Shown here: positions 3,750-12,972 of the stretch, piece after piece
Layout: each line of letters starts with the position of its first letter
Position numbering within the stretch: position 1 is the first letter of the stretch
Assembly: GCA_902773675.1 (NCBI GenBank)
Contig: CACYFN010000002.1
Span: forward strand, 1,453-65,452
Source of the DNA: an uncultured Erysipelotrichaceae bacterium
Lineage (GTDB): Bacteria; Bacillota_I; Bacilli_A; RF39; UBA660
Length of the DNA stretch: 64,000 bases
Direction: 5' to 3'
Translations under genes and position numbers: made by a program
The notes under the pieces: generated by a model
The model's database searches: none
Told to the model about the DNA's origin: nothing
What the model saw: the letters and a program-made list of their open reading frames with translations, nothing else

Positions 3750-6305
3750 TTATTTTGCTTCGTACCAATTTATACCATAATTTATTTCTACATTTAGTGG
3801 TACATCTAATTTATAGATATTTTCCATAGTATTTTTTACTATCTCTTTTACTATTTCTAATTCTTCATTAGGGCAGTCAAATACAAGTTCATCATGCACT
3901 TGGACTATCATTTTACTTTTTAAGTTTTTCTTATTAAATATATCATATATTTCAATCATAGCTTTTTTTAGTATATCAGCACTTGTACCTTGAATAGGAG
4001 TATTTAATGCCATTCTTTCTGCACTACTTCTAATCATATAATTTTTATTATTTAATTCTGGTATAGTTCTTTTTCTATTAAATAAAGTAAGTACATAACC
4101 ATTGTTATGAGCATTTAGTATTGTTTTATCCATATATTCTTTTATTCCTGGATAAGTATTTAAATAATCATCTATAAAGGCTTGGGCTTGTTTTGGATTG
4201 ATACTTAAATTTTCTGATAATCCAAAACTACTTATTCCATAAATAATTCCAAAGTTAACTGCTTTTGCTACTCTACGCATTTCTTTTGTTACATCACTAA
4301 TATCTATATGATATATATCACTAGCTGTTTTAGAGTGAATATCTATATTATTTTTAAATGCATCTATAAGTGAATCAATATGAGCCATATGGGATAGTAT
4401 TCTAAGTTCTATTTGTGAGTAATCACTACTTAGTATTACTCCATTATTACTAGGTATGAAGGCTTTTCTTATGAGTCTTCCATATTCATATCTAATTGGA
4501 ATATTTTGTAAATTAGGTTCTATTGATGAAAGTCTACCTGTTCTTGTTACTGTTTGAGTATAAATGGTATGTATTTTATTATCACTACTTATGGTATTTA
4601 TTAGTCCTTCTATATATGTTGTATATAGTTTTGTAAGCATTCTATATTCTAATATATAATTTATTATTATATGTTTATCTCTTAATTTTTCCAATACATC
4701 AGCTGCAGTTGAATAGCCTGTTTTTCCTTTTTTACCATGTGGTAAATTTAATTTTTCAAATAAGATATTTCCTAATTGACTAGGAGATGATATATTAAAT
4801 TCATTACCTGCTATTTTATATATTTCACTACTAATTGACTCTATTTTATTTTTTATTTCTTTACCCATGTCATTTAAGATATTTTTATCTACTTTAATAC
4901 CGGTATATTCCATATCAGCAAGTACATAAACTAATTTCATTTCAATATTATTAAATAAATTTAACATGTTTTCTTTTTCTAACTTATTTAATAAATCTAT
5001 ATGTGTCTCATAGATAAATTTAGCTTTTTGAATGGATATCTTTGCGAGTTCATTAATTTCATCTGTTTTGGTAAATGGTATATTATAACCTTGTTCGTTA
5101 GCTAAATAAGTTATATCATCTTTAACATTATATTCTAATAAATATGCGGCTATCATGGTATCAAATGTGCATAAATCAATAAAAATATTCTGATATTTAA
5201 AGGCTACTAATACTTTTTTTAAGTCATATGTGTATTTGATATTTTTAATTAGAAATTCTGGATTTTGTTTTAATATATTAAATGGTATAAAATAACTAAC
5301 ATCTTCATTATATACACTTAAACCTATAATATTTGCATTATGATAATTAGTATTATCCATTTCTAAGTATATTGCACATTCTTTAGTTATTTTAATATCA
5401 TTTATGTTATTAATTATTTTAACATTTATGTCTTGAATAGTTTTTTGTTCATTCTTTTTTAAAAATGAATAGAATTCTAATTCTTCATACATTTTATTTA
5501 ATAGTTCATAATTAGGTTCTAAATATTTAGTATCTTCGATAGTTATTTCCATTGGTACATCTTTAACAATAGTAGCAATTGAATAACTCATATAAGCATT
5601 ATCTTTATCAGTTACTAATTTATCATGAGTACTACCTTTTATTTCATCTATATGTTCATAAATACCATCTAGTGTTTTGTATTGAGTAAGTAGTTTTAAA
5701 GCAGTTTTTTCTCCTATACCTTTTACTCCTGGTATATTATCACTACTATCACCCATTAGGGCTTTTAAGTCAATTATATTTATAGGATCTATTCCATAAT
5801 CTTTTTTAAATGTTTCTGGATTATATCTTATATAATCTTTTTGTTTTAGTAGTTTTATATCGACATGATTAGATAATAGTTGTAGTAAATCTTTATCACT
5901 ACTAATAATTGTTCCATCATAATCATCATCTTTATTACAATATTCAGCAAATGTACCAATGATATCATCTGCTTCATAATTGTCTATTTCATAATATTTT
6001 ATACCCATATAAGTTAGTAATTCTTTAGCAATAGGAAATTGTACTTTTAATTCATCTGGTGTTTCTCCTCTTCCACCTTTATAAAAATCATATTTAGCAT
6101 GTCTAAATGTTTTTCCTTTATCAAAGGCAACCATTATATACACTGGTTTTTCTTCAGTTATTATTTTATTTATCATATTTACAAATCCAAATAAGGCATT
6201 TGTTGGAAAACCTTTACTATTTTTCATAAAATTACCATTATATGCTGTTGCATAATAGCTTCTAAATAATAGGTTATTACCATCTACTAATAATATTTTT
6301 TTCAT
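3750..6305 (-). CDS. polA: DNA polymerase I
   Basis: A 5'-3' exonuclease N-terminus (KKILLVDGNNLLFRSYYA) is followed by the polymerase domain. The start is set at the internal MKKIL Met (6303-6305), which has the SD AGGTGAT. The track ORF extends upstream of it without support. Confidence 0.9.
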   Translation of the reverse strand: MKKILLVDGNNLLFRSYYATAYNGNFMKNSKGFPTNALFGFVNMINKIITEEKPVYIMVAFDKGKTFRHAKYDFYKGGRGETPDELKVQFPIAKELLTYMGIKYYEIDNYEADDIIGTFAEYCNKDDDYDGTIISSDKDLLQLLSNHVDIKLLKQKDYIRYNPETFKKDYGIDPINIIDLKALMGDSSDNIPGVKGIGEKTALKLLTQYKTLDGIYEHIDEIKGSTHDKLVTDKDNAYMSYSIATIVKDVPMEITIEDTKYLEPNYELLNKMYEELEFYSFLKKNEQKTIQDINVKIINNINDIKITKECAIYLEMDNTNYHNANIIGLSVYNEDVSYFIPFNILKQNPEFLIKNIKYTYDLKKVLVAFKYQNIFIDLCTFDTMIAAYLLEYNVKDDITYLANEQGYNIPFTKTDEINELAKISIQKAKFIYETHIDLLNKLEKENMLNLFNNIEMKLVYVLADMEYTGIKVDKNILNDMGKEIKNKIESISSEIYKIAGNEFNISSPSQLGNILFEKLNLPHGKKGKTGYSTAADVLEKLRDKHIIINYILEYRMLTKLYTTYIEGLINTISSDNKIHTIYTQTVTRTGRLSSIEPNLQNIPIRYEYGRLIRKAFIPSNNGVILSSDYSQIELRILSHMAHIDSLIDAFKNNIDIHSKTASDIYHIDISDVTKEMRRVAKAVNFGIIYGISSFGLSENLSINPKQAQAFIDDYLNTYPGIKEYMDKTILNAHNNGYVLTLFNRKRTIPELNNKNYMIRSSAERMALNTPIQGTSADILKKAMIEIYDIFNKKNLKSKMIVQVHDELVFDCPNEELEIVKEIVKNTMENIYKLDVPLNVEINYGINWYEAK

Positions 6306-6449
6306 TATATCACCTAAAATAATTATACATTTATTAAATATTTTAGTCAATGAAAAAGAAGGATAATTCCTTCTTACAGACTGTTGACAAATAAGTAAGT
6401 TAATATACCTATTTGTCAACAGTCTGAAAAAACAATGTTAATTGTTTTT

Positions 6450-7121
6450 CTAGTTATTTTCTACTTTTAATATATTATTAATATTCGCATAATTAATAAT
6501 AATTTTATAATTTTCGATATTATAATATTCAGATAAATCTATCTCCAATTTTTCAATATAGTCTTTTTTATTTACTATTATCTTTATATTTCCATCTATA
6601 TCATTACTATCATTTATAAATGTTTTATAATCTTTATTATTAATAATATATTCATATGAAATATTTCCATCTTTATATTCTGTTTTAGAATTATAATCAA
6701 AATTATTTAATAGTTTTTCTATTTCATTATAACTTAATCTACTGATTGGAAATTCTACAATTAATTCATTTGTTGTATTGGAATAAATATAATAATCTTT
6801 AATATTATAATCTTCTGAATCTAATTTAAAATTATCTTTATTATCATAATATGTTCCTGATATTTTTAATAAATTATTATCTTTATTAATTTCATATGTA
6901 TATTCATAATTACTTATTTCTTTTTTATTTTGTGAATTTTCTATATTTTCATTTGCTGTTTGAGAATTGTTATCATATTTTATAGGTGTGTTTGATGGTT
7001 GACCACTCTTTATATAAATGAAAACTATTATAAAAAATATTCCATATACAATTAGAAGATATAGTGATCTTTTTTTAGGATCTTTTTTAAATTCTTTTAT
7101 TTTTTTTATAAAATTTTTCAT
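6450..7121 (-). CDS. hypothetical membrane-anchored protein
   Basis: One N-terminal TM segment with an N/Y-rich exodomain. Its start overlaps the fmt stop as ATGA. Confidence 0.45.
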   Translation of the reverse strand: MKNFIKKIKEFKKDPKKRSLYLLIVYGIFFIIVFIYIKSGQPSNTPIKYDNNSQTANENIENSQNKKEISNYEYTYEINKDNNLLKISGTYYDNKDNFKLDSEDYNIKDYYIYSNTTNELIVEFPISRLSYNEIEKLLNNFDYNSKTEYKDGNISYEYIINNKDYKTFINDSNDIDGNIKIIVNKKDYIEKLEIDLSEYYNIENYKIIINYANINNILKVENN

Positions 7122-8058
7122 TTTAAGATTTTTCCTTTCAATGAATTTTTATCTATACCATTTAAATAATCACTAGCTAACATTCTTTTTTTACCTTCTA
7201 GTTGAATATCTGTTAAGACTATTTCTCCATCACTAACTTTTATACCTATACCATCTTTATAAATATTTGATATTTCTCCATTTTGTAAATTATTTATTTC
7301 TTTATCACTTATATAACTATTCCATATTTTAATTCTTTTATCATCTAACATGGCATAAGCACCTGGATGATTATTTAATCCTCTAATTTGGTTATAAATT
7401 TCTATTTTTGTTTTATTGAAATCTATTTTTTCTTCTTCTTTTGTGATGTTATAGGCATATGTTGCTTCAGTACTTTCTTGTTTTATTCTCTTGATCTTAT
7501 TATTTATAATATCTGGTAATGTTTTTAATAGTAATTCTTTTCCAACTATTTTAAGTTTATCATGAAGGGAAGACATAGTATCAGTATCTTCTATTACTAC
7601 TTCTTCTTTGCTTATTATATCTCCAGTATCCATAGACTCATCCATATACATTATGGTAATACCTGTTTTATCATAGCCATCAATAATGGCATGATGAATT
7701 GGAGCTCCTCCTCTTAGTTTTGGAAGGAGAGATGCATGGACATTAATACAACCATATTTTGGATATTCTAGTAGTATTTTAGGTATAATTTGGCCGTAAG
7801 CAGCGGTTATTATGATATTAGGATTTAAATCTAATATTTCTTGATAGTCTTCTCTTATTTTTGTTGGTTGTAATACTTTTATATTGTGTTTTAAAGCTAA
7901 TTCTTTGATTGGTGATATACTAATTTTACCACCACGTCCTACAGGTTTATCTGGCTGTGTTACTACACCTATAACATTATAATTTTTTATTAATCCGTCT
8001 AATATTGGTACACTAAATAAAGGAGTGCCCATAAATACTATTTTTATATCTTTATTCA
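7118..8058 (-). CDS. fmt: methionyl-tRNA formyltransferase portion with a possible independent internal start
   Basis: The Met of MNKDIKIVFMGTP (8056-8058) is preceded by the SD AAAGAGGT, which lies inside the last pflA codons. Confidence 0.6.
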
Positions 8059-8773
8059 TTTTTACCTCTTTACTAAGTAATATTTTTTCTAATTCTTTGC
8101 ATCTTTTTTTATCCATTGCTTCTACGCCATTTAATTTATATTTTATATTTAATTTTTGATATTTTGATACACCTATCAAACTATATGGAAGTAGTTGTAC
8201 TTTTTCTACATTTTTTATATTTTTTATATAATCTTTTAATTTATAAATATATTCTTCGGTATCATTAATTCCTGGTACAATTACTTGTCTTAACCATAAT
8301 TTTTTATTTAATTCTTGTACTTTTTTTAGGAAATATTCAAATTTATCCATATTTTTAGTAGTTATTTTCTTATAATTTTCATTATCTATTGCTTTTATAT
8401 CTAAAAGAATTAAATCGGTATATTTTAATATTTCATCTAGTAAATTTTTATCATAGCCATTACCGGCCGTATCTATACAAGTGTGAATACCAGCTTTTTT
8501 ACATAGTTTTAGTACTTCAAGTAAGAATTCGGATTGTAGAAGTGGTTCTCCTCCTGAAATGGTTATTCCACCACCCATTTCAATATAACTTCGATATTTT
8601 CTTACTACATCTACGATATCTTTAGCACTTGTCTCTAGGTTATTACCTGGTATCCAAGTATCAGGATTATGACAGAAGCAGCATCTTAGGGGACATCCTT
8701 GAAAAAATACTACAACACGAATACCAGGGCCATCAAGTAGGCCCATGGTTTCGATTGAGTGGATATATCCCAT
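7118..8773 (-). CDS. pflA-fmt: in-frame fusion of pyruvate formate-lyase activating enzyme (radical SAM) and methionyl-tRNA formyltransferase
   Basis: The N-terminal 245 aa are a complete PflA (CPLRCCFCHNPDTW, GGGITISGGEP). They run without a stop codon into a complete Fmt (FMGTPLFSVP, QPDKPVGRG, HASLLPKLRGGAPI). Confidence 0.7.
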   Translation of the reverse strand: MGYIHSIETMGLLDGPGIRVVVFFQGCPLRCCFCHNPDTWIPGNNLETSAKDIVDVVRKYRSYIEMGGGITISGGEPLLQSEFLLEVLKLCKKAGIHTCIDTAGNGYDKNLLDEILKYTDLILLDIKAIDNENYKKITTKNMDKFEYFLKKVQELNKKLWLRQVIVPGINDTEEYIYKLKDYIKNIKNVEKVQLLPYSLIGVSKYQKLNIKYKLNGVEAMDKKRCKELEKILLSKEVKMNKDIKIVFMGTPLFSVPILDGLIKNYNVIGVVTQPDKPVGRGGKISISPIKELALKHNIKVLQPTKIREDYQEILDLNPNIIITAAYGQIIPKILLEYPKYGCINVHASLLPKLRGGAPIHHAIIDGYDKTGITIMYMDESMDTGDIISKEEVVIEDTDTMSSLHDKLKIVGKELLLKTLPDIINNKIKRIKQESTEATYAYNITKEEEKIDFNKTKIEIYNQIRGLNNHPGAYAMLDDKRIKIWNSYISDKEINNLQNGEISNIYKDGIGIKVSDGEIVLTDIQLEGKKRMLASDYLNGIDKNSLKGKILK

Positions 8774-10992
8774 TATAATGCCTCGTGGAATGTTCTAGAT
8801 ATTACTTCTTCTTGTTGTTTACGTGTTAGATTATTAAAGTTAACTGCATATCCGGAAATTCTAATTGTTAAATTAGGATATTTATTACGATTATTCATTG
8901 CATCTACTAACATTTGACGATCTAAAACGTTAACGTTTAGGTGATGTCCTCCTTGTTTAAAATATCCATCTAAGATGTGTACTAAATTACTTATTCTATC
9001 TTCTTCTGAACCAAGTGCATCTGGTATGATTGAGAATGTATTTGATATACCATCTAAACATAATGTATATGGTATTTTAGCAACTGATGATAATGATGCA
9101 ATGGCTCCACTTTTGTCGTTTCCTTGTGTTGGATTTGCTCCTGGGGCGAATGGTACTCCTTTTGCTCTTCCATCAGGTGTAGCTCCGGTATTATTTCCAT
9201 ACATTACATTAGAAGTTATTGTTAATAATGATATAGTTGGTTCTGCATTACGATATAGTGGATATTTTTTTAGTTCTTTTGAAAATTTGGTGATTATTTC
9301 TACTGCTAATTTATCTACCCTGTCATCATTATTTCCATATTTAGGGAAATCTTTTTCAGCATCAAATAATGAAGTTATTCCACGTTCGTCTCTTTTAACA
9401 CGTACTTGACCATATTTAATTGCGGATAATGAATCAGCAACAACACTAATTCCAGCTATACCAAAGGCCATTACTCTATTTGGAATAGTATCATGAAGAG
9501 CCATTTGACTACTTTCATAAGCATATTTATCATGCATGTAGTGAATTATATTTAACGCATCAACATATGTTTTAGTTAACTTTTTTATAACTTTTTCATA
9601 GACATGCATAAATTCATCATAATCAATGTAATCTCCTTCGATTTGCTCAATTCCATCTATTACGACATCACCACTTATTTCATCTCGACCGCCATTTAAA
9701 GCATAAAGAAGTGCTTTAGCTAGATTAATACGGGCTCCAAAGAATTGCATTTGTTTACCTTCTACCATAGCTGATACGCAACAGCTAATTGCATAATCAC
9801 TACCATATATTGGACGCATTACATCATCATTCTCATATTGAATTGTATGTGTTATGATTGACATTTCACTGCAATATTTTTTGAAGCTTTCAGGTAATTT
9901 GTTACTCCATAATATTGTCATATTTGGTTCTGCTGATGTACCTATATTATTTAATGTGTTAATAATTCTAAATGATGATTTGGTAACTAATGATCTAGAA
10001 TCATCAAGCATTCCACCAATTGATTCTGTTACCCAAGTAGGATCTCCAGCAAATAATTCATTATATTCTGGTGTTCTTAGGTGTCTAACTAGTCTTAATT
10101 TTATTACATATTGATCAATTAATTCTTGAGCTTCTTCTTCAGTAATTAGACCTTTTTCTAAGTCTCTTTCAATATATATATCTATAAATGTAGTATTTCT
10201 TCCGATACTAGTTGCTGCTCCATTATTTTGTTTGATTGCTGCTAGATATCCAAAGTATAACCACTGAATTGCTTCTTTAGCGTTTGAAGCTGGTTTTGAA
10301 ATATCATATCCATAACGAGATGCCATTTTTACTGTTTCTTTTAGGGCTTTTATTTGTTCTGCTACTTCTTCACGAAGTCTAATGGTTGACATATTAAGTG
10401 GATCTATTAATTTATCTAGATCTTCTTGTTTCTTTGCTATTAGAAAGTCAACTCCATATAGGGCAATTCTTCTATAATCACCTATTAGACGTCCACGACC
10501 ATATGCATCAGGAAGTCCTGTTATTAAATGATTAGTTCTGGCTTTTCTGATATCTTTTGTATAGGCATCAAATACTCCATCGTTATGTGTTTTACGATAT
10601 TCTGTAAATTTCATTTCTATGTCTTTATTTAATACATAACCATAGGCTTCTAAGGATTTTTTTACCATTCTCATACCGCCATATGGATTTACAATTCTTT
10701 TTAGTGGCTCATCTGTTTGAAGTCCTACTATTACTTCATTTTTTCTATCAATGTATCCTGGTTCAAAATTATCAATTCCAGCTATGATATCTGTTTCTAC
10801 ATCAAGTACTCCACTGATTGCTTCTTTTTTTATTAATGATTCACATTTTTTCCATACTTTTTGAGTTTTGCTTGATACTCCTTTTAAGAATGTACTATCT
10901 CCTCTGTATTCTTTATAATTGGCAGCAATAAATCCTGCGACATCGATATTTTTTTGCCAATTTCCATTTTTAAATCCATTCCATTCGTTCAT
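8773..10992 (-). CDS. pflB: formate C-acetyltransferase (pyruvate formate-lyase)
   Basis: 739 aa with the glycyl-radical motif RISGYAV near the C-terminus. Its stop and the pflA start overlap as TAATG. Confidence 0.9.
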
Positions 10993-10995
10993 AAT

Positions 10996-12972
<1,977 letters not shown>

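What the first reader, a model, noticed from the sequence alone, without database searches (positions are those of the whole stretch)
7118..8773. pflA runs in-frame, without a stop codon, into a complete fmt gene
The 551-aa ORF is a full radical-SAM PFL activase joined to a full methionyl-tRNA formyltransferase, in the order pflB, pflA-fmt, hypothetical, polA. fmt is normally found with def. The junction ...LSKEVK-MNKDIKIVFMGTP has no stop, and the last pflA codons AAAGAGGTAAAA form an SD for the fmt Met, so both a fusion protein and free Fmt may be made. The formate made by PFL feeds formyl-THF, which is the Fmt substrate, so the linkage has a metabolic logic. It may instead simply reflect a lost stop codon.
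Basis: seen in the sequence. Interest (0 to 1): 0.6.

Follow-up and report, generated by a model that had tools for sequence, protein, structure and literature searches.

The report
Real, evolutionarily labile PflA–Fmt gene fusion
In this very AT-rich gut bacterium the enzyme that switches on pyruvate formate-lyase and the enzyme that formylates the initiator tRNA are really encoded as one 551-residue protein, but close relatives flip between fused and separate genes, so it looks like a tolerated by-product of two overlapping genes and not a new metabolic machine.

Summary
Window 7118-8773 (-) is one 551-aa ORF made of a complete PflA (TIGR02493, residues 3-232) and a complete Fmt (TIGR00460, residues 244-542), with no stop between them.

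It is not an assembly error. The identical protein lies on 6 contigs from separate assemblies. Ten 90%-identity clusters (78-100% identity, 549-552 aa) carry the same fusion.

The closest unfused relatives have the same order, ligA-pflB-pflA-fmt-hyp. There, pflA ends 4 nt (GTGA) or 8 nt (ATGAATAA) into fmt, in one of the other two frames. The fusion is therefore the third frame of a variable pflA tail that overlaps the fmt ribosome-binding site.

Fused lineages are not monophyletic (0 of 500 bootstraps). They make up about one third of the clusters, which is roughly what neutral drift among three frames would give.

In every fused lineage a GAGGT or GGTGA Shine-Dalgarno (SD) sequence and an ATG or GTG start are kept. 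All four Val codons at that site are the rare GTG, so free Fmt is probably still made. Both halves are under strong purifying selection (dN/dS 0.06-0.13), so the fusion protein must supply PflA activity.

No evidence supports a metabolic reason for the fusion. Interest is modest.

The parts
7118..8773 (-). Single 551-aa ORF (62.5 kDa) encoding the PflA-Fmt fusion
8075..8773 (-). PflA domain (residues 1-233): radical-SAM glycyl-radical activase with CX3CX2C at C27/C31/C34. The last predicted helix spans residues 222-233.
   Evidence: TIGR02493 at 293.5 bits. PDB 3c8f and 8fo0 at about 1e-58. AF2 secondary structure. dN/dS 0.06-0.08 in fused-fused pairs.
8045..8074 (-). Variable linker (residues 234-243, LSKEVKMNKD). 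It corresponds to the former pflA tail plus the fmt translation-initiation region and the first Fmt residues. AF2 pLDDT is below 50 at residues 236-239.
8064..8068 (-). Shine-Dalgarno GAGGT, 4 nt upstream of the internal ATG. It is conserved as GAGGT or GGTGA at the same spacing in fused and unfused relatives.
8057..8059 (-). Internal in-frame ATG (Met239), the ancestral fmt start codon. The equivalent codon in all relatives is ATG or GTG.
7118..8059 (-). Fmt part (residues 239-551, 35.2 kDa, stop codon included): N-terminal formyltransferase domain and C-terminal tRNA-binding domain.
   Evidence: TIGR00460 at 326.9 bits. PDB 4iqf at 5.6e-93 and 1fmt/2fmt at 4.9e-64.
8083..8088 (-). A6 homopolymer in the pflA tail (GAAAAAATA). 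It lies just upstream of the stretch where spacer length differs between relatives (22, 20 and 18 nt).
8773..10992 (-). pflB, pyruvate formate-lyase (739 aa). It has the glycyl-radical motif RISGY at 711 and CCVS at 404. Its stop overlaps the pflA start (TAATG).
   Evidence: Pfam PFL-like and Gly_radical on the orthologues.
6450..7121 (-). Conserved hypothetical gene (223 aa). Its start overlaps the fmt stop by 4 nt (ATGA). It follows fmt in distant relatives as well.
10996..12969 (-). ligA (657 aa), the first gene of the tightly packed co-directional string. A 3-nt gap separates it from pflB.

Best explanation
This is a genuine, heritable in-frame fusion of pflA and fmt. It arose because the two genes overlap in this clade.

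In one genus-level group of uncultured, very AT-rich Bacilli from gut metagenomes, a pflB-pflA pair lies directly upstream of fmt. The last roughly 5-10 codons of pflA are unconstrained and lie on top of the fmt SD and start codon. Small indels in this tail move pflA among three frames relative to fmt. In two of them pflA stops 4 nt (GTGA) or 8 nt (ATGAATAA) inside fmt. In the third frame there is no stop, so ribosomes read on through fmt.

The window carries this third state. Shown here:
- The fusion is real and recurs in several lineages.
- Both domains stay under strong purifying selection.
- The fmt SD and start codon are conserved inside the fused ORF.

Inferred:
- Ribosomes coming from pflB (TAATG coupling) make a 62.5-kDa PflA-Fmt protein. 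This is the cell's only source of PflA activity, and Fmt rides on it as an independently folded C-terminal domain on a flexible linker.
- Initiation at the internal GAGGT-N4-ATG additionally gives free 35-kDa Fmt.
- The fusion is tolerated and close to neutral. It is not an adaptation that couples formate metabolism to tRNA formylation.
For: Reality of the fusion:
- The exact protein lies on 6 contigs from independent assemblies, and three of them show an identical junction.
- Ten clusters of 549-552 aa at 78-100% identity all carry the four Pfam domains.

Origin by frame change:
- Unfused relatives L081-L086 and L129-L131 have the same gene order, with pflA ending +4 or +8 nt into fmt.
- The spacer measures 22, 20 and 18 nt, so all three frames are represented.
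- Stand-alone PflA tails are very variable: EVIK, KEVKHE, EEVTNE, RGE[VALK], LNS and LKDY.

Lability:
- Fused and unfused lineages intermix in the trees. Fused monophyly was recovered in 0 of 500 bootstraps on 1267 aa of PflB+PflA+Fmt.
- At least 3 frame switches are needed by parsimony (my own count on the tree).
- The window is 87% identical to unfused L081 but only 79-83% identical to fused loci other than its sister L122 (89%).
- The rough census is 10 fused clusters against 22 stand-alone PflA clusters at 78% identity or above, about one third.

Internal initiation:
- GAGGT or GGTGA sits 3-4 nt before an ATG or GTG in all loci. This assumes the GTG start in L127; the script's call there was ATG at 1 nt.
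- All 4 Val codons at the start position of fused ORFs are GTG. GTG makes up only 2.5-10.6% of Val codons in these genomes.

Function of both halves:
- In fused-fused sister pairs dN/dS is 0.06-0.08 for pflA and 0.10-0.13 for fmt at dS 0.65-0.96. These values match the unfused pairs.
- pflB is intact and carries the RISGY and CCVS motifs.
- No stand-alone PflA above 93% identity to the window's appears in the 5.8-billion-sequence search. No second pflA or fmt lies in the window.

Domain independence:
- AF2 gives mean pLDDT 91.6 and pTM 0.59. The only segment below 50 is residues 236-239.

No wider conservation:
- No other PflA+Fmt protein is among the top 150 hits in 1.84 billion representatives.
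- More distant relatives (50-65% Fmt identity) do not have pflA next to fmt. The one exception is L007, with a weak 36%-identity radical-SAM match about 0.9 kb upstream of fmt.
Against: - No protein-level data exist. The ratio of fusion protein to free Fmt, and even whether the internal start is used, is inferred from conservation alone.
- The fused state persisted over dS 0.65-0.96 in two sister pairs, and linker lengths differ in frame (549-552 aa). Both observations would also fit weak positive selection for the fusion.
- The backbone of the trees is weakly supported (28-74%), so the number and direction of switches is uncertain. Recombination could also mimic polyphyly.
- The 'one third fused' census counts clusters, not independent events.
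- A second pflA or fmt elsewhere in the genome could not be excluded, because only 64 kb is available.
Confidence: 0.72

Rival explanations
1. Adaptive bifunctional enzyme. On this view the fusion is selected because it couples PFL activation (anaerobic formate production) to formylation of the initiator tRNA. It could do so by fixing the stoichiometry of the two activities, by co-localising them, or by co-regulating them.
For: - The fusion is kept across dS 0.65-0.96 in two sister pairs, with both halves under purifying selection.
- It is present in at least four distinct lineages, with in-frame differences in linker length.
- Formate can feed 10-formyl-THF through formate-THF ligase. This is established biochemistry and was not tested here.
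Against: - PflA is only the activase of PflB. It neither makes nor handles formate or folate, so fusing it to Fmt gives no substrate channelling.
- Species at 83-87% identity manage with separate genes, and fused lineages are not monophyletic (0 of 500 bootstraps).
- The fused fraction of about one third equals the neutral expectation for three frames.
- The independent fmt SD and start are retained. This would be unnecessary if the fused form were the selected product.
- AF2 shows no confident inter-domain arrangement (pTM 0.59, linker pLDDT below 50).
- The architecture is absent outside this clade.
Confidence: 0.15
2. Sequencing or assembly artefact. On this view a homopolymer indel in the A6 run, or a lost stop codon, falsely joins two separate genes.
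For: An A6 run lies 24 nt upstream of the ATG, and both other frames end in stops just before or at the fmt start. A single-base error would therefore create or destroy the fusion.
Against: - The identical junction appears in three independently assembled contigs from different samples, and the exact protein occurs on 6 contigs.
- The 90% cluster holds 6 distinct 551-aa variants on 12 contigs.
- Nine more clusters, down to 78% identity, come from ENA and Logan assemblies and have different junction sequences that are all in frame.
Confidence: 0.02
3. Only free proteins matter. On this view the fusion polypeptide is cleaved in the linker after translation, or the PflA part is dispensable or decaying, so the ORF behaves in practice as fmt with a long leader.
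For: - The linker is predicted to be flexible and exposed.
- The internal start for Fmt is conserved.
Against: - dN/dS of the PflA part is 0.06-0.08 in fused-fused pairs, as low as in unfused pairs.
- The catalytic cysteines are intact.
- An intact, conserved pflB sits directly upstream.
- No protease site or intein-like element is evident, and no free PflA can be translated.
Confidence: 0.08

Closest known systems
Pyruvate formate-lyase activating enzyme PflA (E. coli; PDB 3c8f/3cb8, 8fo0; TIGR02493)
   Same: Residues 2-231 align over nearly the whole 245-aa chain (E about 1e-58). The CX3CX2C radical-SAM motif is present. The gene sits directly downstream of pflB and is translationally coupled to it.
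   Different: There is no stop codon. The protein carries a 313-aa Fmt at its C-terminus. The C-terminal tail beyond about residue 233 is replaced by sequence dictated by the fmt ribosome-binding site.
Methionyl-tRNA formyltransferase Fmt (PDB 4iqf, 1fmt/2fmt; TIGR00460)
   Same: Residues 240-540 align end to end (E 5.6e-93 and 4.9e-64). Both domains are present. The NVH and DTGD catalytic motifs and the TQPDKPVGRG loop are invariant in the clade.
   Different: The gene is not linked to def. It is encoded in frame behind pflA, so part of the Fmt pool would carry a 238-aa N-terminal PflA.
Overlapping, translationally coupled gene pairs (ATGA / GTGA 4-nt and 8-nt overlaps) and fusion or fission of neighbouring genes by frame change
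   Same: Unfused relatives show exactly these overlaps at the pflA/fmt junction. The window's fusion is the in-frame alternative of the same junction. Such read-through fusions of neighbouring genes are a well-known source of multidomain proteins (general knowledge).
   Different: Here all three frame states are seen side by side among species 77-90% identical. This gives an unusually clear snapshot of repeated switching.
In-frame internal initiation giving two products from one ORF (for example E. coli infB IF2-alpha/beta, clpB, cheA long/short; from general knowledge)
   Same: A conserved SD plus ATG or GTG lies inside a longer ORF, in frame. This predicts a long product and a short product that share a C-terminus.
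   Different: In those cases the two products are isoforms of one protein. Here the short product would be a complete, unrelated enzyme, and two products have not been demonstrated.
Other fusions of the formyltransferase module: ArnA, 10-formyl-THF dehydrogenase, and Def-Fmt (P0255) and DUF2779-Fmt (P0347) found here
   Same: They show that the Fmt-type module tolerates covalent partners. P0255 (Pep_deformylase + Fmt, 461 aa) looks like the same kind of read-through fusion with the usual upstream neighbour, def.
   Different: ArnA and FDH carry the partner at the C-terminus and act in a single pathway. In Def-Fmt both enzymes concern N-formyl-methionine (general knowledge). PflA and Fmt have no known shared substrate or pathway step.

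Membership tests
PflA (glycyl-radical enzyme activase, TIGR02493) | Full-length match to the equivalog model above its curated cut-off | tested here: met
   293.5 bits against a cut-off of 231.75, covering model positions 1-232 of 235
PflA (glycyl-radical enzyme activase, TIGR02493) | Radical-SAM CX3CX2C cluster-binding motif | tested here: met
   C27/C31/C34 in CPLRCCFC. The motif is kept in all fused relatives.
PflA (glycyl-radical enzyme activase, TIGR02493) | A cognate glycyl-radical enzyme (PflB) encoded alongside | tested here: met
   A 739-aa PflB with RISGY and CCVS motifs lies directly upstream, joined by a TAATG overlap. The orthologues carry PFL-like and Gly_radical domains.
PflA (glycyl-radical enzyme activase, TIGR02493) | Enzymatic activation of PflB by the fused protein | not testable with these tools
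   Only indirect evidence: dN/dS 0.06-0.08 in fused-fused pairs
Fmt (methionyl-tRNA formyltransferase, TIGR00460) | Full-length match above the curated cut-off, with both N- and C-terminal domains | tested here: met
   326.9 bits against a cut-off of 201.5. PF00551 and PF02911 are both found.
Fmt (methionyl-tRNA formyltransferase, TIGR00460) | Catalytic Asn/His/Asp residues and the tRNA-recognition loop | tested here: met
   N344, H346, the DTGD motif at 382-385 and the TQPDKPVGRG loop are invariant in 13 aligned sequences. Equivalence to the E. coli residues is from memory.
Fmt (methionyl-tRNA formyltransferase, TIGR00460) | Usual def-fmt linkage | tested here: not met
   No def lies in the 64-kb window or within 6 kb of fmt in the RF39-like relatives. 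The def-fmt pair was seen only in the Fictibacillus loci. This is a contextual feature and is not required for membership.
Selected bifunctional ('Rosetta-stone') fusion enzyme | Fusion conserved as a monophyletic, long-lived architecture | tested here: not met
   Fused lineages intermix with unfused ones, with monophyly in 0 of 500 bootstraps. The fusion is absent from the top 150 of 1.84 billion representatives.
Selected bifunctional ('Rosetta-stone') fusion enzyme | Defined inter-domain interface or shared pathway step | tested here: inconclusive
   AF2 gives pTM 0.59 with both domains above 90 pLDDT and the linker below 50. No PAE or interface output was available. No shared substrate is known.
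Selected bifunctional ('Rosetta-stone') fusion enzyme | Loss of the downstream gene's own translation start after fusion | tested here: not met
   The SD and an ATG or GTG are retained in all 7 fused lineages, with GTG in 4 of 4 Val cases
Nested in-frame gene with internal initiation | Conserved internal SD and start codon at proper spacing | tested here: met
   GAGGT or GGTGA lies 3-4 nt before an ATG or GTG in all loci, taking the GTG start in L127
Nested in-frame gene with internal initiation | Two protein products demonstrated | not testable with these tools
   Needs a western blot, N-terminal proteomics or ribosome profiling

The most novel reading that the evidence does not exclude
The PflA-Fmt polypeptide is a functional module that ties translation initiation to anaerobic formate metabolism. 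For example, Fmt activity or stability could depend on the redox or Fe-S state of the attached radical-SAM domain, or the fusion could be recruited to PflB. On this reading its repeated appearance reflects recurrent positive selection in these reduced-genome gut bacteria.
Probability: 0.07. Interest if true: 0.6.

Novelty: new variant of a known kind. Interest (0 to 1): 0.3.

Why it matters
Both halves are textbook enzymes, and the mechanism that joins them (a frame change at an overlapping gene junction) is well known. The result therefore does not change how either enzyme is understood.

Its value is as a clean natural example. Within one genus-level clade the same gene junction occurs in all three reading frames: two give overlapping separate genes and one gives a fusion. 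The downstream ribosome-binding site and start codon are preserved throughout.

This shows how easily compact, AT-rich genomes create and undo multidomain proteins. It also shows that PflA tolerates a 35-kDa C-terminal passenger.

For annotation, it warns against two opposite errors: 'correcting' the ORF as a frameshift, and over-reading it as a functional link in Rosetta-stone inference.

Tried and rejected
1. Assembly or homopolymer error was rejected. Independent contigs and nine divergent fused clusters show the same architecture.

2. A simple stop-codon point mutation was rejected in favour of a frame change. The spacer is 22, 20 or 18 nt, and the unfused tails lie in the other two frames.

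3. The search for the same architecture elsewhere found nothing.
- The GTDB species representatives (80 loci) gave only Fmt at 50-65% identity without pflA upstream. The one exception was a weak radical-SAM hit in L007, which was not followed.
- The JGI metagenome scan gave one close locus, L086, which turned out to be unfused.
- The search of 1.84 billion representatives listed no PflA+Fmt protein. It did not list the window's own cluster as a fused representative either.

4. Three literature searches brought nothing on this fusion. Two searched for the PflA-Fmt / radical-SAM-Fmt combination and returned no paper. One on RF39 and PFL found 3 papers holding all terms, of which one was listed, and it was irrelevant.

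5. The first phylogeny script timed out. It was rerun with faster code. The backbone remains weakly supported, so the direction of change (fusion ancestral or derived) could not be settled.

6. The second protein search, with the PflA half alone, did not list the fused proteins. The census of fused against unfused therefore combines two searches and is only rough.

7. A search for def or a second pflA/fmt in the window found nothing. The rest of the genome is not available.
Full report
**1. The observation**

The ORF listing gives a single 551-aa ORF at 7118-8773 on the minus strand. Read on that strand, the junction is ...GAA TTA GAA AAA ATA TTA CTT AGT AAA GAG GTA AAA ATG AAT AAA GAT..., which translates to ELEKILLSKEVK|MNKD.
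- The fmt ATG is at 8059-8057.
- The GAGGT Shine-Dalgarno (SD) core is at 8068-8064, 4 nt upstream of the ATG.
- There is no in-frame stop. Both other frames contain stops just upstream (TAG and TAA at 8075-8070, TAA at 8064-8062). The in-frame reading is therefore the only one of the three that runs on.

Domain content confirms two complete enzymes.
- Pfam finds Fer4_12 and Radical_SAM at residues 13-177, and Formyl_trans_N and Formyl_trans_C at 244-539.
- NCBIfam equivalog models match end to end and above their cut-offs: PFLA at 293.5 bits (model 1-232 of 235) and fmt at 326.9 bits (model 2-306 of 315).
- The catalytic motifs are intact: CX3CX2C at C27/C31/C34, plus NVH344 and DTGD382.
- Each half aligns over nearly the full length of solved structures: Fmt with 4iqf and 1fmt/2fmt, PflA with 3c8f and 8fo0.

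The window has 24.7% G+C.

**2. The fusion is not an artefact**

- The exact 551-aa protein is on 6 contigs. Three of them, from different ENA assemblies, were read here and have the identical junction.
- Its 90%-identity cluster holds six distinct 551-aa variants on 12 contigs.
- Nine further clusters, 78-89% identical and 549-552 aa long, come from ENA and Logan assemblies and have the same four-domain architecture.
- Their junction DNA differs from the window's but is always in frame.

**3. What the relatives show**

More distant relatives are gut and rumen MAGs labelled uncultured Bacilli, Tenericutes, CAG:302/451/1193 or Candidatus Coprovivens. I take them to be RF39-like on the basis of these names only.
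- Their Fmt is 50-65% identical to the window's.
- fmt is followed by the same hypothetical gene and often by polA.
- It is not preceded by pflA, apart from a weak 36%-identity radical-SAM match about 0.9 kb upstream of fmt in L007. It is not next to def.
- One of them, L027, has ligA, two small genes, fmt and the hypothetical gene.

The pflB-pflA pair upstream of fmt is therefore specific to the window's genus-level clade.

Inside that clade, the closest unfused relatives (78-84% Fmt identity) have exactly the window's order, ligA-pflB-pflA-fmt-hyp. Their pflA and fmt overlap in different frames.
- In L083, L086, L129 and L130, pflA runs ...GAGGTGAnnAATGAATAA and stops 8 nt into fmt.
- In L081, pflA runs ...GGAGGTGATAAAGTGA and stops 4 nt into a GTG-initiated fmt.
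- Measured from the conserved GAAAAAAT to the start codon, the spacer is 22 nt in the window (fused), 20 nt in L083 and 18 nt in L081. All three frames are thus represented.

Stand-alone PflA proteins of the clade end in very different short tails: EVIK, KEVKHE, EEVTNE, RGEV/A/L/K, LNS and LKDY. The KEVKHE* tail belongs to PflAs 90-91% identical to the window's. Its sequence suggests (no DNA was read) that the window junction differs from it by one nucleotide just before the ATG.

The fusion is therefore the in-frame member of a set of frame variants of an unconstrained pflA tail that lies over the fmt translation-initiation region. It is not a point loss of a stop codon.

**4. Evolutionary pattern**

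- An NJ tree of PflA+Fmt (12 loci) mixes fused and unfused loci.
- An NJ tree of PflB+PflA+Fmt (8 loci, 1267 columns) does the same. The four fused loci formed one split in 0 of 500 bootstrap replicates.
- The window groups with fused L122 (94-100% support) and then with unfused L081 (74%).
- The window is 87% identical to L081 but only 79-83% identical to fused loci other than L122 (89%).
- By parsimony (my own count on the tree), at least three frame switches are needed whichever state was ancestral. The backbone is weakly supported (28-74%), so the direction is open.
- A rough census gives 10 fused clusters against 22 stand-alone PflA clusters at 78% identity or above. That is about one third, which is what random drift among three viable frames would give. 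Clusters are not independent events, so this is only indicative.

**5. Is the fused protein functional?**

In the two sister pairs where both members are fused (window/L122 and L123/L128), dS is 0.65-0.96. dN/dS is 0.06-0.08 for the PflA part and 0.10-0.13 for the Fmt part. These values cannot be told apart from those of unfused pairs.

pflB is intact (dN/dS 0.04) and carries the glycyl-radical and Cys-Cys motifs. No stop exists, so free PflA cannot be translated. No stand-alone PflA above 93% identity to the window's turned up among 5.8 billion clusters, and no second copy lies in the window. The PflA activity of these organisms therefore has to come from the fusion protein. This step is an inference.

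AlphaFold2 gives a confident model of two domains (mean pLDDT 91.6) with a low pTM of 0.59. The only stretch below pLDDT 50 is residues 236-239. It lies between the last PflA helix (222-233) and the first Fmt strand (244-249). The picture is two independently folded domains on a short flexible tether.

**6. Is free Fmt still made?**

In every locus, fused or not, a GAGGT or GGTGA core sits 3-4 nt before an ATG or GTG at the Fmt start position. This assumes the GTG start in L127, where the script itself called the ATG 1 nt after the core.

In the four fused loci where that codon encodes an internal Val (L123, L126, L127, L128), it is GTG every time. GTG is only 2.5% of Val codons in the window and 3-10.6% in those loci. 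A synonymous change to GTA or GTT would cost the fusion protein nothing, so the codon seems to be kept as a start codon. The linker residues (E-V, G-D, G-E) are simply the translation of the SD.

No protein data exist to confirm it.

**7. Metabolic logic**

I find no support for a metabolic rationale.
- PflA is an activase that installs the glycyl radical on PflB. It does not handle formate or folate, so fusing it to Fmt cannot channel a substrate (established biochemistry).
- The adjacency is confined to one small clade, and the fusion flips on and off within it.
- The independent start of fmt is retained.
- No inter-domain arrangement is predicted.
- No other PflA+Fmt protein appears among the 150 best hits in 1.84 billion representatives.

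That search did show Fmt fused to other upstream partners: Pep_deformylase+Fmt (P0255) and DUF2779+Fmt (P0347). These fit the idea that Fmt tolerates N-terminal read-through fusions with whatever gene lies upstream.

Two literature searches for this fusion returned nothing.

**8. Verdict**

The feature is real. It is a domain architecture not seen elsewhere in the searches made here, built from two ordinary enzymes. The best explanation is a tolerated, near-neutral read-through fusion at an overlapping gene junction, with the internal start for Fmt retained (confidence about 0.7). An adaptive coupling cannot be excluded (about 0.15). An artefact is essentially excluded. Interest is modest: it is a neat case of fusion and fission dynamics and a caution for annotation and Rosetta-stone inference, but it is not a new system.

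Noticed in passing
window 8773-12969; L027 2603-6954: The pflB-pflA pair occupies the interval between ligA and fmt only in the window's genus-level clade. A more distant relative has ligA, a 196-aa ORF, a 190-aa thioredoxin-like ORF and then fmt. The fmt-hyp(-polA) backbone is conserved much more widely.
   Followed up: partly
window 6450-12969: The genes ligA, pflB, pflA::fmt and the hypothetical gene are packed with a 3-nt gap, a 1-nt TAATG overlap and a 4-nt ATGA overlap. This suggests one translationally coupled operon.
   Followed up: partly
window 1-64000; L001-L080: No def gene lies in the window or within 6 kb of fmt in the RF39-like relatives. The classical def-fmt pair was seen only in the Fictibacillus loci L062, L065, L066 and L072.
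   Followed up: partly
L081 6001-6981 (P0013; also P0017-P0020): The 326-aa 'Fmt' proteins are gene-caller artefacts. The call starts at an upstream GTG in the fmt frame inside the pflA tail. The real start is most likely the GTG of the GTGA overlap, behind GGAGGTGAT.
   Followed up: yes
downstream of the hypothetical gene: L083 7895-10077, L122 5365-7467, L126 5390-7571, L123 3126-3785, L125 2533-4841; window 6306-6449: The slot between the hypothetical gene and polA varies among close relatives. It holds unannotated 84-, 570- or 700-aa ORFs, FeoA/FeoB, RNase III or an SNF2-family helicase. In the window polA follows directly.
   Followed up: no
L085 10166-12721: In one relative polA is called as two ORFs (210 aa and 580 aa) where the others have a single 851-aa ORF. 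This could be a frameshift, a pseudogene or an assembly error.
   Followed up: no
window 3750-6419: The mechanical polA ORF starts at a TTG at 6419 (889 aa). Relatives have an 851-aa PolA, and the window sequence matches from the ATG at 6305 (MKKILLVDGNN...), so the real start is probably at 6305.
   Followed up: partly
P0255, P0347 (representative library, not in the window): Other N-terminal fusions of Fmt exist: Pep_deformylase+Fmt (461 aa) and DUF2779+Fmt (956 aa). Whether these are real or calling artefacts was not checked.
   Followed up: partly
L007 6001-8052: In one GTDB relative (a rabbit gut MAG), a weak radical-SAM match (36% identity to PflA residues 12-92) lies about 0.9 kb upstream of fmt. 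It is not an orthologous pflA and was not examined further.
   Followed up: no
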